This document shows, piece after piece, positions 21,362-45,472 of a stretch of DNA of 64,000 nucleotides (its first letter is position 1; each line of letters begins with the position of its first letter). Position numbers and translations under genes: made by a program. Origin of the DNA: a virus (taxonomy: Duplodnaviria > Heunggongvirae > Uroviricota > Caudoviricetes); IMG/VR virus record IMGVR_UViG_3300029610_000357, positions 52,285 through 116,284 of that record. One strand, given 5' to 3'. The notes under the pieces are model-generated. The model did not search any database, had not been told where the DNA came from, and saw only the letters and a program-made list of their open reading frames with translations.

Positions 21362-21364
21362 GAG

Positions 21365-21925: not shown

Positions 21926-21936
21926 GGTGGTGAGAA

Positions 21937-22249: not shown

Positions 22250-22252
22250 GGG

Positions 22253-22495: not shown

Positions 22496-22511
22496 GAAAG
22501 GATGATGACAG

Positions 22512-22799: not shown

Positions 22800-22814
22800 G
22801 AAAGAGGTGATCGT

Positions 22815-23132: not shown

Positions 23133-23147
23133 GAAAGAGGTGATCAA

Positions 23148-24054: not shown

Positions 24055-25347
24055 GTGAACGAGATCAATAAAAGGAAATTAGAACTGTTCATGGATGATC
24101 AGCTATGGAGACAAAATATCACACATCAGCAAAGCAAAGGTGTACATAGAGATGTATTAAGAATTGTATGTGATCCAGAATACAAAGCACGGCTTTTAGG
24201 AATGATCTGGGATGGTAATTACAAAATTGCACCTCCGTATGTAGTAGAAATTCCTAAAGACAATGGAAAAGTAAGAGAAGTGTATGTTAATCAGCCAATT
24301 GACAGATTTGTTATGACACAAATCAATTATGTTTATATGCAATTATATGGTCATATGATTCATCCAAGATGTGTGTCTTATCAGAAAGGAATTGGAGTTA
24401 AAAATATCGTAGATGATATTTGTATGGAGCTTAAGAAACATCAAGGAGCTGTTGGGTATAAGGTAGACATTAGTAAGTATTTTGACAGTGTAAGCCGTGA
24501 GGTACTTAATGAAATGATTGATAAAATTGATACAGGAAGTCCTATTGATCAGATTGTAAGAGATTATTATATGGATGATTGTATCATTGATCAGAAAAGA
24601 AATGTTATTGAGAAATACAAAAGTATGACTCAAGGTTGTGCAGTGTCTACATTCTTTGCCAATTGTGTTTTAAGAGATGTAGACGAAGAGTTAAGCAAGA
24701 TGGATATTATTTATTACAGATATTCAGATGATATCTTGATGGTTGGTAAGGATGCAGATAAGGCTTTGAAGATGTTAGGAGAGATGTTAGAAACAAAAGG
24801 ACTTACATTAAATCCCAAAAAGGTAGAAACAGTCAGTACAGATCAATGGTTTACATTCTTAGGAGTGCGAATTAATGGACAGAAGAGAAGTTTTTCTGAA
24901 AAGAGCTTAAAGGAATTTCAGAAACACATTAGAGAATATGTAAATAAGAAAGCAGGAATTGGTAGCGTAAAAGTTGCAATCAGACAAATTAATAAATATC
25001 TGTATTTGAATTTCTTAAGGAATCCGAATGAGTTTGGTTGGGCTGAGTATTTCTTTAGTATTGTGAATGTCGAAGATGATATTAAGACATTAGATATGTG
25101 GATTAAAGATACACTCAGAGGTTTGTATACTGGTAAGAGAAAGGTTGGTGGTCTTGGTGTAAATAAAGTAACTGATGAATGTGGAGTATTAAGAGGGAAA
25201 GGAAAAAACGTAAGTGCAAATCTTGGTAAAACAAGAAGCGATAAAGACATTTTAGAAGAAGCAGGATATATCAGCATGAATGAAATGTATCATCAGTTTA
25301 GATACAGTAAAGAATTGTACAGGGCTTCATTGACGGCTTTATCTTAA
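24055..25347 (+). CDS. reverse transcriptase (orphan RT domain plus a roughly 120-aa C-terminal extension; class unassigned)
   Basis: The RT motifs are readable in order. Motifs 1-2 read PKDNGKVREVYVNQPIDRFV. Motif A is YKVDISKYFDSV, B' is QGCAVSTFFANCVL and C is YYRYSDDILMVG. The region LTLNPKKVE then follows, and after it FLGVRI. GTG start with an AGAGGGTG Shine-Dalgarno sequence. Confidence 0.8.
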   Translation: MNEINKRKLELFMDDQLWRQNITHQQSKGVHRDVLRIVCDPEYKARLLGMIWDGNYKIAPPYVVEIPKDNGKVREVYVNQPIDRFVMTQINYVYMQLYGHMIHPRCVSYQKGIGVKNIVDDICMELKKHQGAVGYKVDISKYFDSVSREVLNEMIDKIDTGSPIDQIVRDYYMDDCIIDQKRNVIEKYKSMTQGCAVSTFFANCVLRDVDEELSKMDIIYYRYSDDILMVGKDADKALKMLGEMLETKGLTLNPKKVETVSTDQWFTFLGVRINGQKRSFSEKSLKEFQKHIREYVNKKAGIGSVKVAIRQINKYLYLNFLRNPNEFGWAEYFFSIVNVEDDIKTLDMWIKDTLRGLYTGKRKVGGLGVNKVTDECGVLRGKGKNVSANLGKTRSDKDILEEAGYISMNEMYHQFRYSKELYRASLTALS

Positions 25348-28807: not shown

Positions 28808-29596
28808 ATGGCAACAGAGTTTGACAAACGAATGAAAGCTTATGAATGTGTCTCAAGACAGTACTTAACAAGAAGAGTACCAGTTGCGATCAGAGTAGAT
28901 GGAAAGGCATTTCATACATTCACTAGAGGGTTTCAGAAACCGTTCGATGAAGTGCTTAGCAATGCAATGCAGGCCACAATGATGAAAATGTGTAGACAGA
29001 TTCAAGGTTGTGTGTTTGCTTACACACAGAGTGATGAAATTACATTTATTCTTATCGATTATCAGAAGCTAAATTCTGATGGCTGGTTTAACTACCGTAC
29101 TGATAAGATGTGTAGCATTGCAGCGAGTATGGCTACTATGGAGTTCAATAAGGTATTTAGTGCTTTTGTTTATGGATTTAAGGTAAACAAGGGAGAAGAC
29201 ATATCAAGTGAAGATATGGAAGTGCTTAAAGCCTATGAGAAATCTAAAGAACGTGGAGCTATGTTTGATGCTAGAGCATTTTCAATTCCAAAAGAAGAAG
29301 TTACGAATCTAATTTATTGGAGACAGCAAGACGCTATGAGGAATGCAGTTCAGATGGTTGGACAAGCATTTTATTCCCACAAAGAGCTTCAGGGTGTTAA
29401 TTGTGAGATGCTTAAAGAAATGTTACTGGCTGATAAGGGAATTGATTGGGATAAGATTCCTGTGAAATATCAGAGAGGTAGCTGTTGTGTCAAGGTTGAT
29501 GGTGAATGGACTATTGACAATAACATTTCTATCTTCAGAGGTAGTGACAGAGAGCAAATTGATAAGCTTGTGTTTGTTGAGAGTGAAGAGAACTGA
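28808..29596 (+). CDS. Thg1-like protein (tRNA-His guanylyltransferase family, 3'-5' nucleotidyltransferase)
   Basis: The N-terminus YLTRRVPVAIRVDGKAFHTFTRGFQKPFDEVLSNAMQATMMKM...AYTQSDEITFIL follows the Thg1 pattern (VRxDGxxFHxFS...KPND...GQSDE). Confidence 0.65.
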   Translation: MATEFDKRMKAYECVSRQYLTRRVPVAIRVDGKAFHTFTRGFQKPFDEVLSNAMQATMMKMCRQIQGCVFAYTQSDEITFILIDYQKLNSDGWFNYRTDKMCSIAASMATMEFNKVFSAFVYGFKVNKGEDISSEDMEVLKAYEKSKERGAMFDARAFSIPKEEVTNLIYWRQQDAMRNAVQMVGQAFYSHKELQGVNCEMLKEMLLADKGIDWDKIPVKYQRGSCCVKVDGEWTIDNNISIFRGSDREQIDKLVFVESEEN

Positions 29597-29829: not shown

Positions 29830-30573
29830 ATGAATGAAGTAGAAACAAAAGAGATCCCGTTTTATGGAGATACGCTTTTAGGTGTAAAAGATGAGGATGG
29901 AGAAGTTTGGTTGGCAATCAGAAGCACATGTATACAGCTAGGGTTTAATGAAAGACGAGCAAGGGCACAAAGAGAGAAAATTCAAGCTGACAAAGTCTTA
30001 TCCAAAGGTGGCCGAAATTTTGGCCTCCTTACAGCAGGGGGTAAACAAGAAACATTTTGCTTACATGAAACATATGTGCCACTTTGGTTAGCTAAAATTA
30101 CATTAACCAAAAAGATGGAAGAGGATATTCCCAATGTTGTTGAAAAGCTAGAAAGATATCAACTTGAAGCAAGAGATGTTTTACATAGGGAAATGTATGG
30201 CACAGAAGAACAGAAAGAAAAGCTTCACAATAACCTAGGTTTGCAAGGAGAGATTATACAACTAAAAGATGCTGTAGATTCTGTAACTGAACAGCTTAAA
30301 GATCAAACAGAGAGATTAGATTTAGTAATGAACAATATGACTATTGATACTAAAAAGCAGAGTCGTATTCAAAAGGCCGCAAAGGAAAGAGTAAGTGAAT
30401 TACTTGGTGGAGCTCATTCAGGACTGTATAAAGCTAAAGGTGCTTTGTATTTTGCAAATCTGTGGCATCAATTGAGATTAGAATTTGAATGTGGAACTTA
30501 TAAAGATCTTAGTCCAAACGATTTTGATGATGCTATGAGCTTTATTCAGAGTTGGACATATGTAGAAAGGTAG
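29830..30573 (+). CDS. antirepressor-like protein (N-terminal Ant/KilA-like domain + C-terminal ORF6C-like domain)
   Basis: The C-terminus KERVSELLGGAHSGLYKAKGALYFANLWHQLRLEFECG is paralogous to the C-terminus of the 36072 gene. Confidence 0.5.
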   Translation: MNEVETKEIPFYGDTLLGVKDEDGEVWLAIRSTCIQLGFNERRARAQREKIQADKVLSKGGRNFGLLTAGGKQETFCLHETYVPLWLAKITLTKKMEEDIPNVVEKLERYQLEARDVLHREMYGTEEQKEKLHNNLGLQGEIIQLKDAVDSVTEQLKDQTERLDLVMNNMTIDTKKQSRIQKAAKERVSELLGGAHSGLYKAKGALYFANLWHQLRLEFECGTYKDLSPNDFDDAMSFIQSWTYVER

Positions 30574-30584
30574 AGGGAAGAAAG

Positions 30585-31553
30585 ATGAGAACAATTACAA
30601 ATACACATACAGGAAAAATTATTTCTGATACAGATTTAACATTGGAATATCTTTATGTTGGAGATTATGGAAAAGAAAATAACATTAAAGCAGATTTTCT
30701 TGGATATAACAAACGTATTGAGAAAGTAGAACATAAACCTGTTAATGTAAAAGAAAAATTAGTTGTTACTGTTTCTTCCCAGAAAGGTTGTCCAATGCAT
30801 TGTAATTTCTGTGATTGTCCTAAGCTTGGATTTAAAGGAAATGCATCTTTAGCTGAGCTCATGGCTGAAATCACATCTGGAATCGCTTTATCTGGAGTAA
30901 AAGATGGAGAACGACTAAATGCGCATTATGCCAGAATGGGTGAACCTACATTTAATCCAAATGTAATTGTTTCTGCAAGACAGGTTGCTCTAATGTTGGC
31001 TGATCCTGATGGAGATATTCATTTTGATACATATCACCCTGTTGTTTCTACAATGATGCCAAAAGCAAATCAGAACTTGAAAGCGTTTTTATTCAAATGG
31101 ATAGCAACAGGTTTCCAATACGGTGGAGAAGATGGTTTCGGTCTTCAGTTTTCTATCAATACATTAGATGAAGAACAGCGAAATGAAATGTTTAGAGAAT
31201 GTTCTTTGTCGTTAGAAGAAATTGGAGCTATTATTGACGATCTTCCAATGCCAAAGAAACGCAAATATACATTAAATTTTGCAGTTACATCTGAAAGCAA
31301 CTTGGATGTTGATTTAATGAACAAGTATTTTGACAAAGAAAAGTGCATTGTTAAGATTACTCCAATTCATGAAACAGTTGAAGCTGTCGATGAAGGTTAT
31401 GAGATTGTTACAGATTTTGATGTTTATGAAAAATTTGAACAGCCTTTAGTAGAAGACGGTTGGGATGTAATTGTATTTGTTCCATCAAAAGAAGAAGATG
31501 CAGACAGAATTACATGTGGAAATTCATTGATTGCATTGAACAAAGATGAATAG
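30585..31553 (+). CDS. RlmN/Cfr-family radical SAM RNA methyltransferase
   Basis: LVVTVSSQKGCPMHCNFCDCPKLGFKGNASLAELMAEI aligns with the RlmN CxxxCxxC region, followed by MGEPTFNP. A C-terminal Cys sits in DADRITCGNSL (RlmN Cys355 equivalent). Confidence 0.65.
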   Translation: MRTITNTHTGKIISDTDLTLEYLYVGDYGKENNIKADFLGYNKRIEKVEHKPVNVKEKLVVTVSSQKGCPMHCNFCDCPKLGFKGNASLAELMAEITSGIALSGVKDGERLNAHYARMGEPTFNPNVIVSARQVALMLADPDGDIHFDTYHPVVSTMMPKANQNLKAFLFKWIATGFQYGGEDGFGLQFSINTLDEEQRNEMFRECSLSLEEIGAIIDDLPMPKKRKYTLNFAVTSESNLDVDLMNKYFDKEKCIVKITPIHETVEAVDEGYEIVTDFDVYEKFEQPLVEDGWDVIVFVPSKEEDADRITCGNSLIALNKDE

Positions 31554-33834: not shown

Positions 33835-34746
33835 ATGGATAGAACAGACCAAACAGCAATTATGGAATCCGATGCAGTAGATTTGAATCAGCTAAAACAC
33901 AAAATTTATCAAGAAGCAATTAGAGATATCGGCCAATCAGGATATGAAGCCCATATGCGTGATTTATTTGGTCGTCCAGTACTTGATTTTGCAAAAACAC
34001 TTGTTATAAATCTTCCGGGTTCCTGTTATGCAAATTGTCCTTATTGTATTGATAAAGGCTTACGCAAAAATGTTATGGACTATGATGATTTTCTCGAAAC
34101 ATGTGAGATTGTATTGAAAGAAAAACATGATTTTAATGAAGTTTCTATTACGGGAGGGAGTTTACCTTCTGACAAATTTAATGAGTTGATAGACATTATA
34201 CAGAAGTATTGTCCAGATGTAAAAATCACATGGAATACAAATGGGGCAAACATAAATAGTTCATACAACATATCGCACATTAAGTATATTAACCTACATA
34301 GAAATTCAGCAGATGATAAGACCAATAAAGAACTATTTTATACTGACACAGAAATCATATCCATTGAAGATTTTAAGCAGTTTGCTGAGAATAAGCTTTG
34401 TATAAGAGTAACTGTTGATAAGGATTTTGATATAGATGAGTATGTAAAATATAAAACCCCAATGTATCTTAATCGTTTGTTGCCAGGTAATACTGAGACA
34501 GAAAAGGTATTTAATAAGGTAAAAACAGCTATTAACATTACTGAAGATACCGATGTGCGTCGAAGAAATCATTACATAAATGGAATATATAAAGATATTC
34601 CTGTTAGATTATGTGTTGGAGATCATCTTGCAAAGCATGTACCCAATAAATATCCCGCATGGCTTAATGTAGTTATTATCCATCGTAGTGGAGTGGTTGC
34701 AGGGTCTTGGTATGAAGATGATAAGTTTTTATATAAAAGGAAGTAG
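33835..34746 (+). CDS. radical SAM protein (CxxxCxxC; subfamily unassigned)
   Basis: LPGSCYANCPYCIDKG contains the Cx3Cx2C cluster motif, and SITGGSLP is glycine-rich. Confidence 0.55.
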   Translation: MDRTDQTAIMESDAVDLNQLKHKIYQEAIRDIGQSGYEAHMRDLFGRPVLDFAKTLVINLPGSCYANCPYCIDKGLRKNVMDYDDFLETCEIVLKEKHDFNEVSITGGSLPSDKFNELIDIIQKYCPDVKITWNTNGANINSSYNISHIKYINLHRNSADDKTNKELFYTDTEIISIEDFKQFAENKLCIRVTVDKDFDIDEYVKYKTPMYLNRLLPGNTETEKVFNKVKTAINITEDTDVRRRNHYINGIYKDIPVRLCVGDHLAKHVPNKYPAWLNVVIIHRSGVVAGSWYEDDKFLYKRK

Positions 34747-34751
34747 TCAAA

Positions 34752-34988
34752 ATGAATAAATTACATGAACGTGCCTATTGTCAAGAATGTGGAAAGTTTG
34801 TTGAGTATGACATTCGTGATGAAATAGTAGAAGAGAACTTCCATGGAACTATAGTTCATTTCCCTTTTAAGGTTGGTCGCTGTAGAGAATGTGGAGCAGA
34901 GATTGCAACAGACAATGGATACAACTTTAGAAGAGGAGATGCAGTGTGGGAAGCTTATAAGAAACTGAAAGGAGAATTCATAAGATGA
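34752..34988 (+). CDS. zinc-ribbon protein
   Basis: The translation contains CQECG...CRECG. Confidence 0.45.
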   Translation: MNKLHERAYCQECGKFVEYDIRDEIVEENFHGTIVHFPFKVGRCRECGAEIATDNGYNFRRGDAVWEAYKKLKGEFIR

Positions 34989-35017
34989 GGTATCAGATGC
35001 GTACCTCATCTTTTTTC
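34985..35017 (+). terminator. rho-independent terminator
   Basis: The stem GATGAGGTA/TACCTCATC is followed by TTTTTTC. Confidence 0.7.
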
Positions 35018-35065: not shown

Positions 35066-35656
35066 ATGAGTAGAGTAAAAGAAATCAAAAAGCAGACAGA
35101 TAACAAGTTTTTGAATCTGTATGACTATACTGTGGTCGATAAGAATGGAAATGAGCATCCATATTATGTAGCTAGCAGACATAATGAAGAAGAGTTGGTA
35201 GCTAAAGTAGGAGAGCCTAAAGCAGACGCAGTGCTAATGTATGCTTATTATGGTGAGGAAAGAGATAAGTTGGTATTGATCAGACAGTTTAGATATCCAG
35301 TAAATGATTACATATATGAACTTCCTGCGGGTCTTGTAGATGAGGGAGAGACAGTTGTAGAAGCTGCAATTAGAGAAATGAAAGAAGAAACCGGTTTAGA
35401 CTTTAAGCCATGTGATGATATGTCTGGATTAAATAGACCGTGTTTTTCAAGTGCTGGTATGACAGATGAATGTGTTAGTACTGTGTATGGGATTGCAACT
35501 GGTGAGATTGATTTAAGTAAGTTAGAAGCGAATGAAGATTTGACAGTACAGATCGTAGATGTGGATGAAGCAGTGAGGATATTAGCAGAAGAGAAGTTGG
35601 GAATCAGGACTTATTATCTTCTATTGTTGTTTATTGCTGGGTCTAAGAATAGATAG
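35066..35656 (+). CDS. NUDIX hydrolase
   Basis: The Nudix box GLVDEGETVVEAAIREMKEETGL fits Gx5Ex7REUxEExGU. Confidence 0.7.
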   Translation: MSRVKEIKKQTDNKFLNLYDYTVVDKNGNEHPYYVASRHNEEELVAKVGEPKADAVLMYAYYGEERDKLVLIRQFRYPVNDYIYELPAGLVDEGETVVEAAIREMKEETGLDFKPCDDMSGLNRPCFSSAGMTDECVSTVYGIATGEIDLSKLEANEDLTVQIVDVDEAVRILAEEKLGIRTYYLLLLFIAGSKNR

Positions 35657-35669
35657 GAGCGAGTATATT

Positions 35670-36056
35670 ATGAGATGTTATGTAACAGGAAAAGCAAAAA
35701 CAACTGCAAATATGATAGCTATAGACTTTATTGAAGCTAGAAGAGGCGAGGAATTATTTGTCTTAGATTGGGATGAAACAGAATTAGGATTTGATACTGA
35801 TTGTGATGAACACGGATTTAAAAAGTTTTCAGGCAGACTAAAGGGAATTAAATTTAATGACCAGTATGCGAATGGTAAAATTGATGAAATTCGAGGAGCA
35901 CAATTATCTGATGTTCAGTTTTATATTCCAGATTGTACAAATACAGTAAAAGACATTAGCTTCGATAGTGTGCAGCTAGATGATGAAGGCGACTTATATG
36001 ATTTCTGCGTTGATAATCCGTATGAGAATATAATTTATACAATATGCCACGAATAG
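35670..36056 (+). CDS. hypothetical protein
   Basis: The internal Met, preceded by GGAGCGAG, was chosen as the start. Confidence 0.4.
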   Translation: MRCYVTGKAKTTANMIAIDFIEARRGEELFVLDWDETELGFDTDCDEHGFKKFSGRLKGIKFNDQYANGKIDEIRGAQLSDVQFYIPDCTNTVKDISFDSVQLDDEGDLYDFCVDNPYENIIYTICHE

Positions 36057-36071
36057 GAAGGAGATTTACAT

Positions 36072-36815
36072 ATGGCAGAGTTAGTTAAAGTAGAACAGAA
36101 ATCAGAATCAGATCAGTTACAACAGATGGTATTTGATAATGCTGATTTTGGAGAAGTGAGAACGGTTGTTATTGATGGTGATCCGTGGTTTGTTGGGAAA
36201 GATGTGGCCGAGTGTTTGGGTTATACGAATCCAAGTAAAGCATTGGCAGATCATGTTGATGACGATGATAAACTCAATAACAAAACGTTATCGAGTTTAG
36301 GACAACGTGGTGGCTGGCTTATCAACGAGTCAGGTATGTATGCATTGATCTTTGGAAGCAAGTTAGAGAAAGCGAGAGAATTCAAGAGATGGGTAACTTC
36401 AGAAGTGCTTCCAACATTAAGGAAAACAGGACATTATGAAGTTGCGGCGGATCAGAGTGTTAACCAACTTTTAGCAGAGTTTGGAGATTTTAAGGTTACA
36501 TATGTTCAGCAGATGGTCGAATTTAAAGACGCTTTAGAAAAGCAAACAAAGGCATTTGACAAGAGTATTTCAAACATGACTCTTTCAACAACTCAGCAAA
36601 ATAAAGTACATAGAGCAGTTAAAGATAGAGTGGGTTCACTGTTAGGTGGTGCCCACTCTGATTTATATAAAGAGAAAAGCAGAATGTATTTTGCTAATCT
36701 CTGGAATGATCTTAAGGCTGAGTTTGAGTGCGGTAGTAGATGGCAGGATCTGAATCCAGCTTATATGGAAGAAGCTATGAGTTGGATTAGATATTGGAAC
36801 TATGAAGGGAGATAA
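36072..36815 (+). CDS. Bro-N/ORF6N + ORF6C antirepressor-like protein
   Basis: The N-terminus is Bro-N-like: VIDGDPWFVGKDVAECLGY...SGMYALIF...KRWVTSEVLPTLRKTG. The C-terminus is paralogous to the 29830 gene. Confidence 0.6.
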   Translation: MAELVKVEQKSESDQLQQMVFDNADFGEVRTVVIDGDPWFVGKDVAECLGYTNPSKALADHVDDDDKLNNKTLSSLGQRGGWLINESGMYALIFGSKLEKAREFKRWVTSEVLPTLRKTGHYEVAADQSVNQLLAEFGDFKVTYVQQMVEFKDALEKQTKAFDKSISNMTLSTTQQNKVHRAVKDRVGSLLGGAHSDLYKEKSRMYFANLWNDLKAEFECGSRWQDLNPAYMEEAMSWIRYWNYEGR

Positions 36816-36818
36816 GTT

Positions 36819-37097
36819 ATGACCAATGAAATGAAAGAAATGAAAATCTGGATTTCACAGCGAGATAAGAAGTATAGATATATGTTGTTAGATCGTATGA
36901 GATCAGATTGTGAGTACTACTTAAACGGTCATAAATGTGTTAATCATTTGTGGAGCAAGACGGAAGAAGAACAGATTGATTATATGCTGTTCATTTGGGA
37001 TTTGTTCACAGAAAACGAAAAGCCTGAATGGTTAAGTAGAGAGCAGATCATTGAGTTTGGAAAAAGAATGGGAGTAGAGGTGAAAGAAAATGAGTGA
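36819..37097 (+). CDS. hypothetical protein
   Basis: A 92-aa ORF. Confidence 0.4.
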   Translation: MTNEMKEMKIWISQRDKKYRYMLLDRMRSDCEYYLNGHKCVNHLWSKTEEEQIDYMLFIWDLFTENEKPEWLSREQIIEFGKRMGVEVKENE

Positions 37098-37605
37098 GAA
37101 TATTACGATTAATCTTGAGGGGTTGAGTAAAGAAGAGAGAGAGCAATTGTTAGGACTGGTTGAGAAAGCTAAGAGGCCTAAAAAGATTTGGAAACCTGAA
37201 TACGGAGACTGGTATTGGTATATAAGTAGTGATGGACAAGTTTATAACTGTGAATGGGAAAATGATCGTATAGACCAGGGAAGATATTCTATGGGGAATT
37301 GCTTCAGAACTAAAGAAGAAGCAGAATTTGCAGGAGAAAAACAGAAAGTTAAGACCGAGCTTCAGAGATATGCTGACGAACACAATGATCCAAATCTTGA
37401 AGAATGGAATGTGAAAAATTGGCACTATTGTATTGAATATCTCCCAAAATGCGACGCACTAGAAATTGTGAGTATGTGTTCCAGAAGAATGGAATCCGTC
37501 ACATATTTCACATCTGAAAACATAGCAGAAGATGCAATGAAGGAAATTGGGAAAAAACGCATCATGAAATATCTATTTGATGTTGATTGTGAGGTGGATG
37601 AATGA
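37090..37605 (+). CDS. hypothetical protein
   Basis: A 171-aa ORF that overlaps its neighbours. Confidence 0.45.
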   Translation: MSENITINLEGLSKEEREQLLGLVEKAKRPKKIWKPEYGDWYWYISSDGQVYNCEWENDRIDQGRYSMGNCFRTKEEAEFAGEKQKVKTELQRYADEHNDPNLEEWNVKNWHYCIEYLPKCDALEIVSMCSRRMESVTYFTSENIAEDAMKEIGKKRIMKYLFDVDCEVDE

Positions 37606-37925
37606 GTACATATAAAATCGGAGAAATATTAGTATCACAAAGAGAAACAGAAGTTGAAACAATTTTTGGACGAAAAGAGGTAATCCCTAAAGGAAACAAA
37701 ATTATTATTACAGCTCATAAGCTTGGGCATCATATTAGGAACGGCATGAAACAGCCTTTGCAAAAGGATGCTGTTGTAAAAGGTTATGACACAGAAGGGC
37801 TTGCAGAGTATTTGTTTACGTGTATGAAAAGTCATCTTCCGATGGATGATATGATGTATGATTATGACTTAACAGAAGAGGATATCAAAGAAGTTATTGA
37901 AGAAGCATTGGATGAGATTTTTTAG
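37602..37925 (+). CDS. hypothetical protein
   Basis: A 107-aa ORF. Confidence 0.45.
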   Translation: MSTYKIGEILVSQRETEVETIFGRKEVIPKGNKIIITAHKLGHHIRNGMKQPLQKDAVVKGYDTEGLAEYLFTCMKSHLPMDDMMYDYDLTEEDIKEVIEEALDEIF

Positions 37926-37941
37926 AAGAGGTGGTTAGGAA

Positions 37942-38337
37942 ATGATAACTGTATTGATCATGTTTTCGATTGTGATAGTGTATGTAATTATTTATAAAAC
38001 AAATCATTATTTACTAACACATAAAGAATCACCATGGACATATCCAAGATTACATAAATGCAGATGTGGTGGAAAGCCACAAGTTAAATGGTCTTATAGT
38101 CCAGATTTTAATTATGAAACACATAAATTATGTGGGTTGAGAGGAATATATGAAGTTAAAATCAATTGCCCAAAATGTGGCTTTTCTGTAACAGTAAATA
38201 GGCATTACGATTTATCAACTAAGGGGAACAATTTTAAAACAATTCCCGATCCAGGAAGTATTAATAGGGCAAATATGAAAGCGATAAGAGCATGGAATGA
38301 AACAAGTCCAGAAAAATGTGAGGAGTGTGACCGATGA
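37942..38337 (+). CDS. membrane-anchored zinc-ribbon protein
   Basis: An N-terminal transmembrane helix, then CRCGG...CPKCG. Confidence 0.45.
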   Translation: MITVLIMFSIVIVYVIIYKTNHYLLTHKESPWTYPRLHKCRCGGKPQVKWSYSPDFNYETHKLCGLRGIYEVKINCPKCGFSVTVNRHYDLSTKGNNFKTIPDPGSINRANMKAIRAWNETSPEKCEECDR

Positions 38338-38612
38338 AAAAGAAATTGTTAGTTTGTTGTATGGCGACAATTATGGGATGTATGTTAGCAGGGTGTGACG
38401 ATGGCTCATCGTATTATGACGAAAATGGAATCAATAAGACATTTACAATGGAAGACATTAATGGAGAGTTAAAATATGATACTCAAACAAAGATTGTTTA
38501 CTACAGGTATGTAGGAGGGCATGTAGGTTATATGTGTCCATATATCAGTAAAGATGGCCAATATTGTAAGTATGAAGATGGTAAAGTTATTCCTTTAGAG
38601 AAAGGAGAGTAA
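38334..38612 (+). CDS. lipoprotein
   Basis: A signal peptide with the lipobox LAGC. Confidence 0.5.
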   Translation: MKKKLLVCCMATIMGCMLAGCDDGSSYYDENGINKTFTMEDINGELKYDTQTKIVYYRYVGGHVGYMCPYISKDGQYCKYEDGKVIPLEKGE

Positions 38613-38614
38613 TT

Positions 38615-38968
38615 GTGGAAAATAAGAAATTAGATAAGTTCAATATGAAATATCCAGTGATTGTATTTCACGATAAGACACCTAAAGAAATTCCATACAT
38701 AGCCTATATTCCGTATTTCCTATGTAATACACAGGGGAAAACTGAAAAAGAATTGGAGCTTATGGTAGATGATCTTATTAAGATGTGTTTAGAAGAAGAT
38801 CACTGGCAGTTACCAAATTATGCAGATCCTGATATTAGCGATTGGGAATTAAAACAAATTGCAGACAATTCCCTTAAGGATCAGGGAGTGACTGAGGAAG
38901 AAAGAAAACAAATTGAAGTATCTGTTTGGTGGTATGAAGTGAAAACAGAGCTTAGAAAGGAACGATGA
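38615..38968 (+). CDS. hypothetical protein
   Basis: A 117-aa ORF. Confidence 0.45.
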   Translation: MENKKLDKFNMKYPVIVFHDKTPKEIPYIAYIPYFLCNTQGKTEKELELMVDDLIKMCLEEDHWQLPNYADPDISDWELKQIADNSLKDQGVTEEERKQIEVSVWWYEVKTELRKER

Positions 38969-38978
38969 GATGGAAGTG

Positions 38979-39146
38979 ATGTTTTACATATTATGGGTTT
39001 TTGGATTGATCGCAGCTTTGTGTGTGATTATTGGAATCCCATACATGTTAATTTACAACTATAAGAGAATCAGAGCTATTGACAAGAAACTTGATGGGAT
39101 GCTTAGGGGATTAAGCATTATGTTTGGTGAAGGAGATGATGAATAA
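38979..39146 (+). CDS. small membrane protein (55 aa)
   Basis: A hydrophobic helix, FYILWVFGLIAALCVIIGIPYML. It is under 60 aa, so it is not in the ORF track. Confidence 0.3.
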   Translation: MFYILWVFGLIAALCVIIGIPYMLIYNYKRIRAIDKKLDGMLRGLSIMFGEGDDE

Positions 39147-39373
39147 TGGAAGAAAAATTATTATGTTCTCATTGTCGTGAAAGAGTGCCTTATGAGACTT
39201 TTTCCAAAGAAACAACTGAAGTAATAAAGGGAATAGAAGTTACTTACACAGAAAACTATGGTGTTTGTAAAATTTGTGGACATCGAATCTTTGTTCCAGA
39301 GTTTGAGGATGACAACATGGAAAGATTAGATGAAGCTTATTGGAGAGAAGCAAAAAAGAAAAGGAGTGAATAA
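39146..39373 (+). CDS. zinc-ribbon protein
   Basis: The translation contains CSHCRE...CKICGH. Confidence 0.45.
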   Translation: MEEKLLCSHCRERVPYETFSKETTEVIKGIEVTYTENYGVCKICGHRIFVPEFEDDNMERLDEAYWREAKKKRSE

Positions 39374-39375
39374 TA

Positions 39376-39942
39376 ATGAAACCATATGATACAGGACTTG
39401 TTTGCGGAAGATTCCAGACATTTCATAAAGGACATGAGAGACTGGTTGATACCGGTCTTTTATTATGTGACCGTTTATTAATTTTAATTGGATCAGCACA
39501 AGAGTGTGGGACAGAAAGGAATCCATTCAACATTAACACAAGAACAAAAATTCTAAAGGAGATCTATGGAGACCGACCAGAAGTAATGATCTATGGATTA
39601 GCTGATATGACAGATGAAAATGATATCTGTCCTGAGTGGGGTAAATATTTATTAAACAATGTAGATCGTTATATCCACAAGAACCCCGAGATTATGATTT
39701 ATGGGAACGATGAAAGTCGAAGTGGTTGGTTTGACAAGAAAGACTTAGCTAATACGGCAGAGCTGATCGTAAATAGACAGGACTTGCCAATCAGTGCAAC
39801 TATGGTAAGAGAAGCTATGGCAAAAGATGATCGCAAGAAATGGATGAGTTTAGTGAATCCAAGATTACATAAAATGTATGATGAGCTGCGAGCAGAACTT
39901 ATGAGTGTGCCATTTTATCAGGAGTTGAATAAAGGAGAGTGA
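39376..39942 (+). CDS. nicotinamide-nucleotide adenylyltransferase-like nucleotidyltransferase
   Basis: GRFQTFHKGH matches the NMNAT/cytidylyltransferase motif (GRFQPFHxGH). ISATMVRE matches the C-terminal ISxTxIR motif. Confidence 0.6.
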   Translation: MKPYDTGLVCGRFQTFHKGHERLVDTGLLLCDRLLILIGSAQECGTERNPFNINTRTKILKEIYGDRPEVMIYGLADMTDENDICPEWGKYLLNNVDRYIHKNPEIMIYGNDESRSGWFDKKDLANTAELIVNRQDLPISATMVREAMAKDDRKKWMSLVNPRLHKMYDELRAELMSVPFYQELNKGE

Positions 39943-40359: not shown

Positions 40360-40794
40360 ATGAGCTCATTAGATGTTATTTATTTCCTAGTACTGCTCGG
40401 TACGGGATTTGTCTTAGGTTGGGGTTTTCATCTTATTAAAACAGAAAATGAGATGGAAGCAGATATAGGAGATATAGAAGATATAGAAGAACAATACGAA
40501 AGAAAACTTGAATATGCAGAGTATGAAATATCCACATTAAGACGAGAAAATCATAAATTACAAATTCGTGTAAGTGTTTTAAGGGATGATATCATAGCGC
40601 TTAAAACAGAAAGACTCGCAGATATCCAACGACATAAAACATTTGTGGAGGAAACAAAGAAATGGAAGTCTAAACAAATGTCGCCAGAAGTTAAAGAAGT
40701 GGTTAAATATGCTATGAAATCAGCGCATCCTGACAATGGTGGAGATGTAAAAGATTTTATGAAGTTTAGAGAGCTGTATAACAAGATTAAGTAA
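40360..40794 (+). CDS. membrane-anchored J-domain (HPD) protein, paralog of the 16235 gene
   Basis: An N-terminal transmembrane helix, a coiled coil, and the C-terminus VKYAMKSAHPDNGGDVKDFMKFRELYNKI. Confidence 0.55.
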   Translation: MSSLDVIYFLVLLGTGFVLGWGFHLIKTENEMEADIGDIEDIEEQYERKLEYAEYEISTLRRENHKLQIRVSVLRDDIIALKTERLADIQRHKTFVEETKKWKSKQMSPEVKEVVKYAMKSAHPDNGGDVKDFMKFRELYNKIK

Positions 40795-40949: not shown

Positions 40950-40997
40950 GATACTATACTGATGAGTATTCTATTTAAAAGAAAAGGAGATTACATA

Positions 40998-42167
40998 ATG
41001 AGAGTAGTAGAATCAGGAAGAAAATACAAATTTTACAATAACGCAATTACAACATATGAGCAGTTGCCAGCAAAAACATATAGGGTAGCTTTTAATGATC
41101 AGGAAGGTTTTTCATTGGTTGAAACACATGACTTAGAAATGACAGAAACAAAAGTTTATGGTCAACATTTAGAAAAAGTAGATAAGGTTCTAAATGCATT
41201 AGATAAGATGAAACGTAATTTAGGAGTGATCTTAAGTGGTGACAAAGGAATTGGTAAGTCATTGTTCTCTAAGATGTTAGGAATCAAAGCGAAAGAAAGT
41301 GGAGTGCCAGTTATCTTAGTAGACGAGTATATTCCAGGAATTGCAAATTTCTTAGACGATATTGAACAGACTGTAATGGTATTGTTTGATGAATACGACA
41401 AGACTTTTGATGAAAACAAATATAATTGTCAGGCAGAAATGCTGTCATTGTTTGATGGGATGAGTGCAGGCAAAAAGCTATTTGTTATTACTTGTAATAA
41501 GATTGATGAGCTAAGTTCCTTCTTATTAAATAGACCAGGAAGATTTCATTATCATTTTAGATTTGCTTACCCTACAGTAGATGAGATTCAAGCATATATG
41601 GAAGACAAACTTGAAGAACAGTACTATGGAGAAATTGAAAATGTAATTGCCTTTAGTCTACGAATGAAATTGAATTATGATTGTCTTAGAGCAATTGCAT
41701 TTGAGCTAAATACTGGGTCAAGCTTTAAAGAGGCGATTGAGGATCTTAATATTTTAAGAATGTATAGTACCGAATATATAGATATCGTTGTTGAATTTGA
41801 AAATGGGAAAATATTAGAAGGAAGTGTACCAGAAAATGAACTATATGACGGTTCAGGATATGATATGGATTTGCATATTCCTTTGACTATTTCTAAATTA
41901 TACAATGATAGAGACATTGGAGAAATGAGATTAAATTTCACAGACAATTACGTAGATCCTGAGGAAAAATTAATTATGTTTAATTTTGAAGGTAATGAAG
42001 TCAAATTTTATGATACTTATACACCACATAAAATGCCAGATGAGGCCAAGTCTGAGGTTGCTAGAGAAATTACTAAAATTATTGAGGAAAATTATTCAGA
42101 ACAGCAGGTTAAACGTATTTTTATGGCACCAAAAGAAAACAAAGATGAATATAGATTTTTTGGTTAG
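40998..42167 (+). CDS. AAA+ ATPase (classic clade)
   Basis: Walker A reads GDKGIGKS, Walker B reads MVLFDEYD, and the sensor motif is LLNRPGRFHYHFRF. The start was set at the Met preceded by AAAAGGAGA. Confidence 0.6.
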   Translation: MRVVESGRKYKFYNNAITTYEQLPAKTYRVAFNDQEGFSLVETHDLEMTETKVYGQHLEKVDKVLNALDKMKRNLGVILSGDKGIGKSLFSKMLGIKAKESGVPVILVDEYIPGIANFLDDIEQTVMVLFDEYDKTFDENKYNCQAEMLSLFDGMSAGKKLFVITCNKIDELSSFLLNRPGRFHYHFRFAYPTVDEIQAYMEDKLEEQYYGEIENVIAFSLRMKLNYDCLRAIAFELNTGSSFKEAIEDLNILRMYSTEYIDIVVEFENGKILEGSVPENELYDGSGYDMDLHIPLTISKLYNDRDIGEMRLNFTDNYVDPEEKLIMFNFEGNEVKFYDTYTPHKMPDEAKSEVAREITKIIEENYSEQQVKRIFMAPKENKDEYRFFG

Positions 42168-42181
42168 AGAGGAGTGATTGA

Positions 42182-43096
42182 ATGAAGTGTTTTTATCATT
42201 TAGATTTAGATGGGAAGTGTGCGGGCTATTTAGTATGGCATTATGCTTGTTTAGGAGAGGAAGATGAAAACCCAGAGAATTTTATTAAGATTAATTATGG
42301 CATGGAGTTTCCATTAGACAAAATTAAAAGAGATGAAAGAGTGTTTATTGTTGATTTTAGCATTGAACCGGAAGATATGAAAGAACTCTTAAAAATTACA
42401 AAAAATGTAGTTTGGATTGATCATCATAAAACGACTATTGAAAAATATAAGGATTTTGAAAGCTATATTCCAGGGATAAGAATGACAGGGCCTGGAATAT
42501 CAGGGGCTTCATTGACATGGTGGTATTTCAATAATAATGCTCTCTTCGATGGAATGGAAAGGGTACAAGGGTTACAGCCAAAAGAAGATGAAGATTGGGA
42601 TGAAGATATGCCCCTTGCTCTTTTATTAGTAGCTGACTGGGATACATGGACATTCAATTATAGAGAGGAAACTAAATACTTTCATACAGCATTTGAAATG
42701 TTGGAATATGAGCCTTGGCAATTTGGCGAATGGTTCGAGCTTATAAAAGATCCTTATGTTCTTATTGAGCAAGGACGACTTCTTTATAAGTACAAACAGA
42801 AACAGGCAGAAGAATATATCAGTTCAAAGGGATTCGCTGTAGAGTTTGAGGGATATAAGTGTTTCGCTGTGAATCATGGATTGATTAATTCAGATTTCTT
42901 CGAGTCAGTTGATGATAAGTATGATATCTATATTGGATTTGCTTATAATGGTGGAAGCAAGAGATGGAGCTATAGCTTGAGAGCTGCGAATGATGATGTG
43001 GACGTAAGTGAGATCGCTATTAAGTACGGTGGTGGCGGACACAAAGGAGCTGCAGGATTCGCAAGTGATAAGTATGTTTTAGGAGAGATGAGCTAA
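42182..43096 (+). CDS. DHH-DHHA1 phosphoesterase (NrnA/RecJ-like nanoRNase family)
   Basis: The DHH motifs are HLDLDGKCAG and IDHHK. The DHHA1 motif is GGGGHKGAAGF. Confidence 0.65.
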   Translation: MKCFYHLDLDGKCAGYLVWHYACLGEEDENPENFIKINYGMEFPLDKIKRDERVFIVDFSIEPEDMKELLKITKNVVWIDHHKTTIEKYKDFESYIPGIRMTGPGISGASLTWWYFNNNALFDGMERVQGLQPKEDEDWDEDMPLALLLVADWDTWTFNYREETKYFHTAFEMLEYEPWQFGEWFELIKDPYVLIEQGRLLYKYKQKQAEEYISSKGFAVEFEGYKCFAVNHGLINSDFFESVDDKYDIYIGFAYNGGSKRWSYSLRAANDDVDVSEIAIKYGGGGHKGAAGFASDKYVLGEMS

Positions 43097-44124: not shown

Positions 44125-45114
44125 GTGAGCAATAGGGAAGGACACGAACAAGAAATTGAAGCAAAGACCAGAGAAAAACTTAAGGATTTGCCAGACTATT
44201 TGAACCAGTTCTATTATAGAATGACAGCAAATGGAATGCAGGCAACTACGAAAAGAAGTTACATTGGTTATTGTGTAAATTTCTTAAAGTATTTTTCTCC
44301 TGATTTGAGCATAGATCCAAACGATATAACAGATAGTGATATTGACAAATATATGGATTCAATCACTTATATAAATGGTAAGAAAGCTTCGGTGTCTAGT
44401 AGGGCAACGAAGCTTTCTGCTTTAAAAACATTCTTTGGATTTATGAAAGAAAGGGGAATTATAGAAAGAGATCCAACTAAAAGTATTAGGCCACCTAAGA
44501 ATAAAGGACTTAATCCTGTTGTATACTTAACAGAAACAGAAATTAAGATGGTTGAGCACACAATTCGTACTGGAGCAGGATCTCATAAAGCAAAAGCCAA
44601 ACAAAAGAAATGGCGGAATAGAGATTTAGCCATTTACTTTTTATTCTTATCAACCGGGATAAGGGTAGAAGCCTTGTCTGAGATTGATGTCGAAGACATT
44701 GACTTTCACGATAAAAAACTAATTGTTATAGACAAAGGTGAGAAAGAAATAATACATTTTTTGTCTGACCAGTTGATAGAATATATACAGATTTGGCTCG
44801 AAGATAGAGAAAAGTTTTTAACAGAAAAAGATAAAGAAGAAAAAGCGTTATTTCTTAACACTTCTTTAAACAGGTTGGGAGCAACAGGTATAAGAAGAAT
44901 GATAAAGAAATATACAGCAAATTTAGATAAAAAAATCACTCCACATAAATTGAGAAGTACATTTGCAACTATGATTTATCAAAAGACAGGGGACATTTAT
45001 TTAGCTTCTCAGATGATAGCTCATGAAAATATTAACACAACAAAGCGATATGCGGCTTGTGTCGAAGAGAGCAAGAGAGAAGCATCAGATATGATAGGAG
45101 ATGTCCTTTTTTAA
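44125..45114 (+). CDS. int: tyrosine recombinase / integrase
   Basis: The catalytic region has R (GIRVEALSEI), HKLRSTFAT and HENINTTKRYA, which fits the R-H-R-Y signature. GTG start with an AAAGGAGA Shine-Dalgarno sequence. Confidence 0.7.
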   Translation: MSNREGHEQEIEAKTREKLKDLPDYLNQFYYRMTANGMQATTKRSYIGYCVNFLKYFSPDLSIDPNDITDSDIDKYMDSITYINGKKASVSSRATKLSALKTFFGFMKERGIIERDPTKSIRPPKNKGLNPVVYLTETEIKMVEHTIRTGAGSHKAKAKQKKWRNRDLAIYFLFLSTGIRVEALSEIDVEDIDFHDKKLIVIDKGEKEIIHFLSDQLIEYIQIWLEDREKFLTEKDKEEKALFLNTSLNRLGATGIRRMIKKYTANLDKKITPHKLRSTFATMIYQKTGDIYLASQMIAHENINTTKRYAACVEESKREASDMIGDVLF

Positions 45115-45130: not shown

Positions 45131-45472
45131 ATGTGCATGAGGGGAGATATTTATTGTGTTGAATTAAAGAGTTATGAAAAACACGTACAAAAAGGAAAGC
45201 GACCAGTATTGGTCATAAGTAATAACAAAAACAACTTTAATAGTCCAGTAGTTACCGTGGTGCCTTTTACATCTGTAACAAAGAAAATGGATTTGGATAC
45301 ACATGTAGTTATTTATAAGAGCTTTGGATTACGATTGGATTCTATGGCTCTTGGTGAACAGATTATGCCTATCGATAAAAGCAGGCTTACAGAAGATAAT
45401 TTGATAGGTCACATAGACGACAAAAGGCTTTTAGAGAAAATAAAAGAAGCATGTATTTGCCAGATTTCATAG
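45131..45472 (+). CDS. MazF/PemK-family endoribonuclease toxin-like protein
   Basis: MRGDIYCVELKSYEKHVQKGKRPVLVISNNKNNFNSPVVTVVPFTS follows the MazF pattern (RGDIYxVDL...GxRPVLVVS...VVxPxTS). A strong AAGGAGG ribosome-binding site precedes the start. No MazE-like antitoxin ORF is obvious upstream. Confidence 0.6.
   Translation: MCMRGDIYCVELKSYEKHVQKGKRPVLVISNNKNNFNSPVVTVVPFTSVTKKMDLDTHVVIYKSFGLRLDSMALGEQIMPIDKSRLTEDNLIGHIDDKRLLEKIKEACICQIS

What the first reader, a model, noticed from the sequence alone, without database searches (positions are those of the whole stretch)
35066..39942. NUDIX hydrolase plus NMN adenylyltransferase-like gene: possible NAD+ salvage or anti-defence pair
A NUDIX gene with a canonical Nudix box sits at 35066. 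A GRFQTFHKGH nucleotidyltransferase (NMNAT signature) sits at 39376. They lie 4 kb apart within one accessory block.

Phage NMNAT and Nudix combinations rebuild NAD+ and can offset NAD-depleting defences. No NAMPT-like gene is seen in this window.
Basis: partly seen in the sequence, partly recalled or inferred. Interest (0 to 1): 0.55.

Follow-up and report, generated by a model that had tools for sequence, protein, structure and literature searches.

The report
Orphan phage NMNAT plus captured ADP-ribose hydrolase
A ~131-kb SPβ-like gut prophage carries a real NAD-forming adenylyltransferase and a real ADP-ribose-type Nudix hydrolase, but they were acquired independently and the phage lacks the remaining genes of every known phage NAD⁺-rebuilding pathway, so at most it boosts the host's own NAD⁺ salvage.

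Summary
Both ORFs exist exactly as described. 35066-35656 encodes a 196-aa Nudix with a canonical box; its confident model matches NUDT5/NudF ADP-ribose pyrophosphatases. 39376-39942 encodes a 188-aa NadM/archaeal-type NMNAT with all catalytic motifs. Both are under purifying selection.

The "pair" reading is only partly supported. The NMNAT is a conserved cassette (72-99% identity) in hundreds of gut SPβ-like phage contigs, with different neighbours in each clade. The Nudix was captured from Lachnospiraceae (50-57% identity to chromosomal genes). It accompanies the NMNAT in only two lineages; in the second it lies 19 kb away, in the other order, truncated behind an IS element.

I tiled the complete ~131-kb genome from near-identical relatives; the circle closes. 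It holds no NAMPT/Namat, Adps, NadE, PnuC/RNK, LigA or Tpt1 (tblastn and profile HMMs, with a positive control). It therefore is not NARP1, NARP2 or NARP3.

A sister clade places the same NMNAT in an island with NARP1-like Adps and Namat, NadE and Tpt1, and an NMNAT-NadE fusion exists. This anchors the enzyme in NAD⁺ synthesis.

Most likely this is a host-dependent, partial salvage aid. An anti-defence role is untested. Interest is modest.

The parts
35066..35656 (+). Nudix hydrolase, 196 aa, of the NUDT5/NudF ADP-ribose (ADP-sugar) pyrophosphatase type; Nudix box at residues 89-111
   Evidence: PF00293 at 5.8e-14. Best NCBIfam matches are NudE and ADP-ribose diphosphatase, below the equivalog cut-offs. 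PDB sequence hits to NUDT5 at 1.5e-10 and to bacterial ADPRases. AF2 model pLDDT 92.8; Foldseek top hit human NUDT5, TM 0.79 over the full length. dN/dS 0.05-0.17.
39376..39942 (+). Stand-alone NadM/archaeal-type nicotinamide-mononucleotide adenylyltransferase (NMNAT), 188 aa
   Evidence: PF01467 at 1.4e-9. NCBIfam: NadM-Nudix N-terminal half 1.2e-16, archaeal NMNAT 8e-15, PPAT only 6e-5. phrog_3462 NMNAT 1.9e-16. PDB sequence hits are exclusively NMNATs. Motifs GRFQTFHKGH, R48, W88 and ISATMVR are present. Orthologues sit beside NadE and NARP1-like genes, and an NMNAT-NadE fusion, P0338, exists. dN/dS 0.06, with synonymous sites saturated even at 94% aa identity.
34982..35012 (+). Terminator-like hairpin (12-bp stem plus T-run) between the upstream zinc-ribbon ORF and the Nudix gene
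   Evidence: sequence read. No comparable + strand terminator lies between the Nudix and the NMNAT.
34752..34988 (+). Small zinc-ribbon ORF (78 aa, phrog_18167) immediately upstream of the Nudix; function unknown
   Evidence: phrog_18167 at 1.2e-7. Weak paralogue of 39146-39373 (27% identity, E 1e-5). Found only in the window's own clade.
39146..39373 (+). Small zinc-ribbon ORF (75 aa, phrog_18167) ending 2 nt before the NMNAT start; the NMNAT ribosome-binding site lies inside its 3' end
   Evidence: phrog_18167 at 5.7e-13; sequence. It is not a conserved partner: the upstream neighbour of the NMNAT differs in every other clade.

Best explanation
These are two independently acquired accessory genes of a temperate, SPβ-like phage of gut Clostridia, with a genome of about 131 kb. 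The 188-aa protein is a NadM-type adenylyltransferase. It joins AMP from ATP to a pyridine mononucleotide to make NAD+; the substrate is NMN, and possibly also NaMN, which would give NaAD for the host NadE to finish. The 196-aa protein is a NUDT5/NudF-type Nudix captured from a Lachnospiraceae chromosome. It splits ADP-ribose, or a related ADP-sugar, into AMP and ribose-5-phosphate. The phage encodes no phosphoribosyltransferase, no Adps, no NadE and no NR uptake or kinase. It therefore cannot rebuild NAD+ on its own. At most the two enzymes bracket a host-dependent salvage loop: ADPR to R5P (phage Nudix), R5P to PRPP (host Prs), PRPP to N(a)MN (host PncB or NadV), and N(a)MN to NAD+ (phage NMNAT). 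Shown here: family assignments, catalytic motifs, purifying selection, genome-wide absence of partner genes, separate evolutionary histories, and NAD-gene neighbourhoods of the NMNAT in relatives. Inferred: the actual substrates, the loop through host enzymes, the timing of expression, and any benefit against NAD+-depleting defence.
For: NMNAT identity. Link of this NMNAT subfamily to NAD synthesis: NadE sits beside it in 33 of the 84 relative loci analysed (L003-L086); Namat-like, Adps-like and Tpt1 genes sit beside it in 20-26. The Namat-like protein matches SpβL1 Namat (PDB 9W5X) at 5e-117 (PDB id identified in PMC12774641). The Adps-like protein is 41% identical to the SPbetaL1 gene. NadE is also adjacent to NMNAT relatives of 37-41% identity in bacterial MAGs, and an NMNAT-NadE fusion exists. 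Nudix identity. Host origin of the Nudix. Independent histories. Complete-genome tiling and closure. Absence of NAMPT/Namat, Adps, NadE, Tpt1 and LigA: and 95 (HMMs, no hit at E<=10, with a positive control). Absence of PnuC/RNK. Purifying selection.
Against: No biochemical data exist for either protein. Both score far below the NCBIfam equivalog cut-offs. The NMNAT model is only moderately confident (pLDDT 74), and its structural matches are weak (TM about 0.5) and include PPATs. Nudix substrate range cannot be read from sequence. The genome tiling uses relatives 97-100% identical to the window, not the source contig. That contig is 216 kb, and about 88 kb beyond its right-hand phage end was not seen; it is probably host flank but is unverified. 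Co-retention of both genes in two lineages could reflect some functional link that I am under-weighting.
Confidence: 0.55

Rival explanations
1. One reading: the two genes are the NMNAT and Nudix halves of a NARP2/NatV-type NAD+ reconstitution pathway that counters NAD+-depleting defence, with a NAMPT encoded elsewhere in the genome.
For: Both enzyme families match the two domains of NadM-Nudix/NatV. NARP2 is experimentally validated (bioRxiv 10.1101/2024.02.11.579819). Both genes are retained in two lineages.
Against: No NAMPT or Namat was found anywhere in the closed ~131-kb genome by tblastn or profile HMM. The Nudix shares only a 44-residue local match with a NadM-fused Nudix and derives from a host chromosome. 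Linkage is not conserved.
Confidence: 0.07
2. The two genes are functionally unrelated. The NMNAT serves phage or lysogen NAD+ supply. The Nudix acts on something else: it clears ADP-ribose or ADP-sugars as housecleaning, or it degrades ADPR-derived immune signals or toxic ADPR derivatives.
For: The genes have separate histories and positions. A terminator precedes the Nudix. The Nudix-Bro-N adjacency is conserved while the NMNAT moves. The 2022 survey argues that stand-alone phage Nudix proteins mainly counter soluble ADPr derivatives (PMC9503650). In one lineage the Nudix is truncated behind an IS200/IS605 insertion while the NMNAT stays intact.
Against: There is no direct evidence for signal degradation. 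The closest structural relatives are plain ADPR/ADP-sugar pyrophosphatases. ADPR hydrolysis is in any case the activity coupled to NMNAT in NadM-Nudix enzymes.
Confidence: 0.2
3. The genes are lysogenic-conversion cargo. They are expressed from the prophage to improve the host's NAD+ homeostasis, not to serve lytic growth or counter-defence.
For: The phage is temperate and SPβ-like, with integrases and Yon/Yor genes. The cassette lies in prophage-sized regions of cultured Clostridia genomes, E. plexicaudatum ASF492 and Flintibacter muris. Source contigs exceed the ~131-kb phage length, consistent with host flanks.
Against: Both genes sit co-oriented within the early/replication-side gene block. 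No dedicated promoter stands out: promoter-like matches are fewer than in shuffled sequence. No expression data exist.
Confidence: 0.12
4. The NMNAT mainly recycles the NMN released by NAD+-dependent DNA ligase during phage DNA replication.
For: LigA lies within 10 kb of the NMNAT in several relatives: L003, L004, L005, L039, L041, L320 and L329.
Against: This phage's genome has no LigA. Most NMNAT loci lack one nearby. My own rough estimate, not a computation, is that ligation events are few compared with the cellular NAD+ pool.
Confidence: 0.06

Closest known systems
NadM-Nudix / KVP40 NatV with NadV (NARP2)
   Same: It has the same two enzymatic activities: a NadM-type NMNAT and an ADP-ribose-type Nudix. 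The best NCBIfam match of the NMNAT is the N-terminal half of NadM-Nudix (1.2e-16). Vibrio phage VspSw_1 shows the classical fused gene followed by NAMPT.
   Different: Here the two are separate genes 3.7 kb apart with separate origins. The Nudix is of the NUDT5/NudF type rather than the NadM-fused clade. The defining NAMPT is absent from the whole genome. The 2022 survey found NadV in every NadM-containing phage (PMC9503650), so this phage is an exception to that rule.
NARP1 (Adps + Namat; SpβL1, Bas63)
   Same: The phage backbone is of the same type (SPβ-like). A sister clade carries Adps-like and Namat-like genes a few kb upstream of the orthologous NMNAT.
   Different: The window's phage has neither Adps nor Namat. 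Its ADPR-hydrolysing Nudix would destroy the NARP1 substrate. Within +-10 kb, Nudix and NARP1-like genes are mutually exclusive.
NARP3 (PnuC-like transporter + NadR-like RNK-NMNAT; phage Bas30)
   Same: The NMNAT domain is homologous. The best PDB sequence hit, 9x6f (1.8e-8), is a 357-aa NMNAT that is probably Bas30_86; I did not verify that identification.
   Different: The genome has no RNK domain and no PnuC-like membrane protein.
Bacterial NudF/AspP and human NUDT5 ADP-ribose/ADP-sugar pyrophosphatases
   Same: The full-length fold, including the N-terminal beta-domain, matches (TM 0.79). The Nudix box is canonical. Identity to chromosomal Lachnospiraceae homologues, some annotated as ADPR pyrophosphatase, is 50-57%.
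   Different: It is phage-borne and about 7 residues shorter than its bacterial relatives. Its substrate is untested.
COG1058-PncC fusion (ADPR pyrophosphatase + NMN deamidase) in bacterial NAD recycling
   Same: It is another case where an ADPR pyrophosphatase is paired with an NMN-consuming enzyme (PMC3680494, title and abstract seen).
   Different: The protein families are unrelated, and that case is a fusion with conserved linkage; here there is none.

Membership tests
NadM/archaeal-type NMNAT (HIGH-superfamily nucleotidyltransferase) | (H/T)xGH motif in the context GRxQPFHxGH | tested here: met
   GRFQTFHKGH at residues 11-20. It aligns with GRMQPFHRGH of M. thermautotrophicum NMNAT.
NadM/archaeal-type NMNAT (HIGH-superfamily nucleotidyltransferase) | C-terminal ISxTxxR motif and conserved Arg residues equivalent to R11 and R47 of the archaeal enzyme | tested here: met
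   ISATMVR at residues 139-145; R12 and R48 align with R11 and R47. All are invariant in the family alignment.
NadM/archaeal-type NMNAT (HIGH-superfamily nucleotidyltransferase) | Profile match to NMNAT models better than to other nucleotidyltransferases, and above the curated cut-off | tested here: inconclusive
   Best matches are NadM-Nudix at 1.2e-16 and archaeal NMNAT at 8e-15, against PPAT at 6e-5. All scores (55-61 bits) are well below the equivalog cut-offs of 127-397 bits. Fold search puts NadM first but with weak TM and PPATs close behind.
NadM/archaeal-type NMNAT (HIGH-superfamily nucleotidyltransferase) | Catalyses NMN + ATP -> NAD+ + PPi | not testable with these tools
   Only contextual support is available: NadE, Namat-like and Adps-like neighbours and an NMNAT-NadE fusion in relatives.
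NARP2 (Nampt + Nmnat) | A NAMPT (NadV) gene in the same phage genome | tested here: not met
   No hit by tblastn at E<=0.01 or by profile HMM at E<=10 with a positive control, across the closed ~131-kb tiling.
NARP2 (Nampt + Nmnat) | An NMNAT gene | tested here: met
NadM-Nudix bifunctional enzyme (NatV type) | NMNAT and Nudix domains in one polypeptide, with a Nudix of the NadM-associated clade | tested here: not met
   The genes are separate and 3.7 kb apart. The Nudix shares only a 44-residue local match (E 7e-4) with the VspSw_1 fusion, and its nearest relatives are NUDT5/NudF.
NARP1 (Adps + Namat) | Adjacent Prs-like Adps and Nampt-like Namat genes | tested here: not met
   Absent from this genome. 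Present in the sister clade.
NARP3 (PnuC + NadR-like) | A PnuC-like transporter and an RNK kinase domain | tested here: not met
   No multi-pass membrane protein of PnuC size exists. The only nearby P-loop kinase has the guanylate-kinase signature. This was a hydropathy and motif screen, not a PnuC profile search.
ADP-ribose/ADP-sugar pyrophosphatase subfamily of Nudix hydrolases | Canonical catalytic Nudix box GX5EX7REUXEEXGU | tested here: met
   GLVDEGETVVEAAIREMKEETGL at residues 89-111. The box residues are invariant in 22 homologues.
ADP-ribose/ADP-sugar pyrophosphatase subfamily of Nudix hydrolases | N-terminal beta-domain plus Nudix fold, as in NUDT5 and NudF | tested here: met
   AF2 model pLDDT 92.8. 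Full-length match to NUDT5, TM 0.79, then to Klebsiella and E. coli ADPRases.
ADP-ribose/ADP-sugar pyrophosphatase subfamily of Nudix hydrolases | Proline about 15-16 residues downstream of the Nudix box (ADPRase signature; recalled from memory, Dunn et al. 1999) | tested here: inconclusive
   A family-invariant proline (P125) lies 14 residues after the box. The spacing rule is from memory and was not verified.
ADP-ribose/ADP-sugar pyrophosphatase subfamily of Nudix hydrolases | Hydrolyses ADP-ribose to AMP + ribose-5-phosphate | not testable with these tools

The most novel reading that the evidence does not exclude
A stand-alone NMNAT plus a captured host ADP-ribose pyrophosphatase could be a minimal, host-dependent fourth route of phage NAD+ restoration. 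The Nudix would turn the ADPR produced by NADase defences into ribose-5-phosphate for host PRPP synthesis, and the NMNAT would pull the last step. This would replace the NARP1 island that sister phages carry at the syntenic position. More broadly, the highly conserved orphan NMNAT cassette, present in hundreds of gut SPβ-like phages and mostly without any phosphoribosyltransferase nearby, might by itself protect against NAD+ depletion.
Probability: 0.15. Interest if true: 0.55.

Novelty: new variant of a known kind. Interest (0 to 1): 0.3.

Why it matters
Phage NAD⁺ reconstitution (NARP1, NARP2, NARP3) is an active topic in phage–bacterium conflict. This locus shows that part of the toolkit, a NadM-type NMNAT, circulates as a strongly conserved stand-alone cassette in uncultured gut Clostridia phages. 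It often occurs without the phosphoribosyltransferase that published surveys say always accompanies NadM. If such orphan NMNATs, with or without an ADPR hydrolase, measurably raise NAD⁺ during infection, then current counts of phages with NAD⁺ counter-defence, which rely on complete pathways, are underestimates. If they do not, this is an ordinary auxiliary metabolic gene plus a host-derived housekeeping Nudix.

Tried and rejected
- **Close cultured relatives.** Megablast of the 9-kb block against INPHARED phages found nothing. Protein-level hits were only NadM or NadM-Nudix genes at about 30% identity.
- **NAMPT by contig name.** I scanned IMG/VR with the sister-clade NAMPT/Namat alignment and compared contig names. 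I replaced it with a genome walk.
- **Conserved zinc-ribbon partner.** Both enzymes are preceded by phrog_18167 ORFs, but the NMNAT's upstream neighbour differs in every other clade. Rejected.
- **NARP3-like split (PnuC + RNK).** No candidate was found.
- **LigA-NMN recycling as the main role.** LigA is near the NMNAT in some relatives, but this genome has none.
- **DGR around the reverse transcriptase.** The 154-nt repeat pair shows no adenine-specific mismatches; these are tandem paralogous small genes.
- **Structure-based confirmation of the NMNAT.** The model reached only pLDDT 74 and the Foldseek matches were weak, so this evidence is supportive only.
- **Unused resources.** I did not use the third large homology search. 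It could have extended the source contig by one more 10-kb step, which I judged not worth the cost after the circle closed.

Full report
**Observation.** Both ORFs are present exactly where stated, on the + strand.
- ORF 35066-35656 (196 aa) matches PF00293 at 5.8e-14. It has a textbook Nudix box, GLVDEGETVVEAAIREMKEETGL, at residues 89-111.
- ORF 39376-39942 (188 aa) matches PF01467 at 1.4e-9. It carries GRFQTFHKGH (residues 11-20) and ISATMVR (residues 139-145).
- Both have good Shine-Dalgarno sequences.
- The two genes are 3.7 kb apart, with about ten small ORFs between them. These include a Bro-N/ORF6C protein and an LPD11-domain protein.
- Against diverged phage copies, dN/dS is 0.06 for the NMNAT and 0.05-0.17 for the Nudix. 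NMNAT synonymous sites are saturated even at 94% amino-acid identity. Both are therefore functional, selected genes.

**What the two proteins are: the NMNAT.**
- The transferase scores best against the N-terminal half of NadM-Nudix (1.2e-16) and archaeal NMNAT (8e-15). PPAT scores only 6e-5. All scores are far below the equivalog cut-offs.
- PHROGs gives NMNAT/'cytidyltransferase' families.
- Its PDB sequence hits are exclusively NMNATs: a 357-aa phage or NadR-type enzyme (9x6f), Francisella NadM-Nudix, and archaeal NMNATs. In these alignments R12, H17, H20 and R48 align with the catalytic R11, H16, H19 and R47 of the M. thermautotrophicum enzyme.
- The AF2 model is only moderate (pLDDT 74). 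Foldseek ranks NadM-Nudix and archaeal NMNATs first, but with TM about 0.5 and PPATs close behind. I treat this as supportive only.
- An exhaustive search shows a distinct subfamily of mostly stand-alone proteins of 175-230 aa: 81 representatives below 1e-30 and 2,176 below 1e-3.
- One member of that subfamily, P0338, is fused to NAD synthase.

**What the two proteins are: the Nudix.**
- It scores best against NudE, ADP-ribose diphosphatase and YffH models.
- Its PDB sequence hits are NUDT5 and bacterial ADPRases.
- A confident model (pLDDT 92.8) superposes over its full length, including the N-terminal β-domain, on human NUDT5 (TM 0.79). Klebsiella and E. coli NudF come next.

**Genome context.**
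- The window comes from a 215,938-bp human-gut metagenome contig.
- YonJ, YonG, YonD, YonB and YorF domains, tyrosine recombinases, a split PolIII-α, DnaB and RecD2 mark an SPβ-like temperate phage of Firmicutes.
- I walked the genome in IMG/VR relatives that are 97-100% identical to the window. The window overlaps the first tile at 99.2% identity.
- The right-hand extension from the source contig joins the far end of the left arm through contig _120075 at 98.7% identity. The circle therefore closes at about 131 kb. This matches the 128-134-kb IMG/VR contigs, one of which is permuted.
- The longer metagenome contigs (177-216 kb) are best explained as prophage plus host flanks. That is an inference.

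**Partner genes are absent.** Across the whole tiling I found no NAMPT/Namat, Adps-like, NadE, Tpt1, AdSS-like or LigA gene.
- tblastn at E≤0.01 used three clade-specific queries per family plus a Vibrio-phage NAMPT.
- Profile HMMs searched all six frames at E≤10. The same HMMs scored 1e-126 to 1e-304 on a positive-control locus.
- No PnuC-sized membrane protein or RNK kinase exists.
- The phage therefore encodes none of the three described NAD⁺ reconstitution pathways:

| Pathway | Components | Source |
|---|---|---|
| NARP1 | Adps + Namat | bioRxiv 10.1101/2024.02.11.579819, |
| NARP2 | Nampt + Nmnat | bioRxiv 10.1101/2024.02.11.579819, |
| NARP3 | PnuC + NadR-like enzyme | PMC13464706, |

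**History of the NMNAT.**
- It has more than 1,200 close homologues (77-93% identity), all stand-alone. IMG/VR holds 101 relatives on large viral contigs.
- It also occurs in cultured Clostridia: E. plexicaudatum ASF492 at 81% and Flintibacter muris at 68%.
- Its immediate neighbours differ from clade to clade.
- In a sister clade (L039-L073, NMNAT 72-77% identical) it closes an island of AdSS-like, Adps-like, Namat-like, Tpt1 and NadE genes. NadE is found in 33 loci, the Namat-like gene in 26, the Adps-like gene in 22 and Tpt1 in 20.
- The NAMPT-like protein of that island matches SpβL1 Namat (PDB 9W5X/9W5W) at 5e-117, against 5e-60 for human NAMPT (PDB ids identified in PMC12774641).
- The Prs-like protein is 41% identical to a gene of Bacillus phage SPbetaL1. 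Its best match to a solved Prs is only 6.6e-13. The island is therefore NARP1-like.
- NadE also sits next to NMNAT relatives of 37-41% identity in Ruminococcus and Clostridiales MAGs.
- LigA, which releases NMN, lies within 10 kb in several lineages.
- Taken together, the subfamily is firmly tied to NAD⁺ metabolism. NadE is its most consistent partner, which leaves open whether NMN or NaMN is the preferred substrate.

**History of the Nudix.**
- It has only a few phage-side relatives (96-98% and about 70% identity). Identity then drops to 50-57% against chromosomal Lachnospiraceae proteins. Those sit in housekeeping context beside a divergently oriented Rrf2 gene.
- It shares only a 44-residue local match with a NadM-fused Nudix.
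- Within ±10 kb of the NMNAT it occurs only in the window's own clade, where the NMNAT is at least 96% identical. No ORF with a canonical Nudix box occurs within ±10 kb of the NMNAT in the NARP1-bearing clade.
- In a second lineage (NMNAT 89% identical, Nudix 71%) both genes lie on one 26.5-kb contig, but 19 kb apart and in the opposite order. There the Nudix is N-terminally truncated, directly behind an IS200/IS605 insertion.
- A sibling contig keeps a full-length Nudix at the same syntenic site after Band_7.
- A strong terminator-like hairpin (34982-35012) separates the Nudix from the genes upstream of it.

**Interpretation.**
- The 'pair' is a juxtaposition of two independently acquired cargo genes. 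It is not a conserved module, and the phage cannot rebuild NAD⁺ by itself.
- The most likely role is a partial aid to host salvage. The Nudix converts ADP-ribose to AMP and ribose-5-phosphate. The NMNAT accelerates the final adenylylation. Host Prs, a host phosphoribosyltransferase and, if NaMN is the substrate, host NadE supply the steps in between. These middle steps, and any effect on NAD⁺-depleting defences, are inferred.
[quoted passage not shown] This phage, and the roughly 50 of the 84 relative loci analysed (L003-L086) that have no phosphoribosyltransferase within 10 kb, are exceptions to that rule, at least at neighbourhood scale.

**Verdict.**
- This is a variant arrangement of known enzyme families rather than a member of NARP1, NARP2 or NARP3.
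- Interest is modest (0.3). The more notable by-product is the sister-clade island that combines NARP1-like genes with NadE, Tpt1 and this NMNAT.

Noticed in passing
L039-L073 (IMG/VR), e.g. L055:588-10528; L324: A sister clade of gut SPβ-like phages carries an NAD island upstream of the orthologous NMNAT. It holds an AdSS-like gene, an Adps-like gene (41% identical to an SPbetaL1 gene), a Namat-like gene (5e-117 to PDB 9W5X), Tpt1/KptA and NadE. The original NARP paper reported no phage with both NARP1 and NARP2. This NARP1-like set combined with NMNAT and NadE may be an undescribed extended module.
   Followed up: partly
P0338 (431 aa): This protein is a fusion of the NMNAT subfamily with an NAD synthase (NadE) domain. 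It links the two enzymes as consecutive steps.
   Followed up: partly
L003:7518-9467, L005:5570-7489, L320, L329: An NAD+-dependent DNA ligase (LigA) lies 0.5-2.5 kb from the NMNAT in several related phages or prophages, including E. plexicaudatum ASF492, where it appears split in two. The window's phage has no LigA.
   Followed up: partly
window 33835-34746 and 30552-31553: Two radical-SAM-like ORFs (303 and 333 aa; the 303-aa ORF carries a canonical CX3CX2C motif) have only weak MoaA-like matches, below the Pfam threshold. The first sits just upstream of the zinc-ribbon ORF and the Nudix, but only 6 related loci carry it.
   Followed up: no
window 24055-25347: A reverse transcriptase (RVT_1, 6.9e-21) is conserved in relatives, downstream of a ThiF-like gene. 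The nearby 154-nt repeat pair (22776-22929 and 23109-23262) shows no adenine-specific mismatches, so I found no evidence of a DGR.
   Followed up: partly
window 21339-23262: A tandem array of small paralogous genes. Four units of about 280-320 bp share the ribosome-binding site and an N-terminus beginning MW(K/E)xG; a further pair of units lies at 22776 and 23109.
   Followed up: no
window 40962-43096: An AAA/nSTAND3-like ATPase (401 aa) is followed by a DHH/DHHA1 phosphoesterase (304 aa). The latter is NrnA- or GdpP-like and could degrade oligonucleotides or cyclic nucleotides. A PemK-family toxin gene lies at about 45131-45472, next to a tyrosine recombinase (44125-45114).
   Followed up: no
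window 28808-29596: A Thg1-like 3'-5' nucleotidyltransferase (tRNA-His guanylyltransferase family), conserved in relatives. It suggests a tRNA-repair function.
   Followed up: no
L315:8277-10459: An IS200/IS605 element (Y1 transposase plus TnpB) is inserted immediately upstream of the Nudix in a related phage, leaving a 152-aa N-terminally truncated Nudix.
   Followed up: partly
window 54630-58961; L090:1066-5648: The PolIII-α-like polymerase is split into two ORFs in the window (493 + 800 aa) and into three in a close relative (493 + 353 + 464 aa). This suggests mobile insertions (an intron, an intein or a homing endonuclease) or frameshifts.
   Followed up: no
window 40360-40794: The 144-aa ORF ends with an ...HPDNGGD... 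motif that resembles a J-domain HPD loop. This is my reading of the translation only; no profile hit supports it.
   Followed up: no
source contig ENA ERZ918360 k127_111100: The phage genome closes at about 131 kb in relatives, but the source contig is 216 kb. About 88 kb beyond the right phage end was not seen. This is consistent with an integrated prophage plus host flank.
   Followed up: partly
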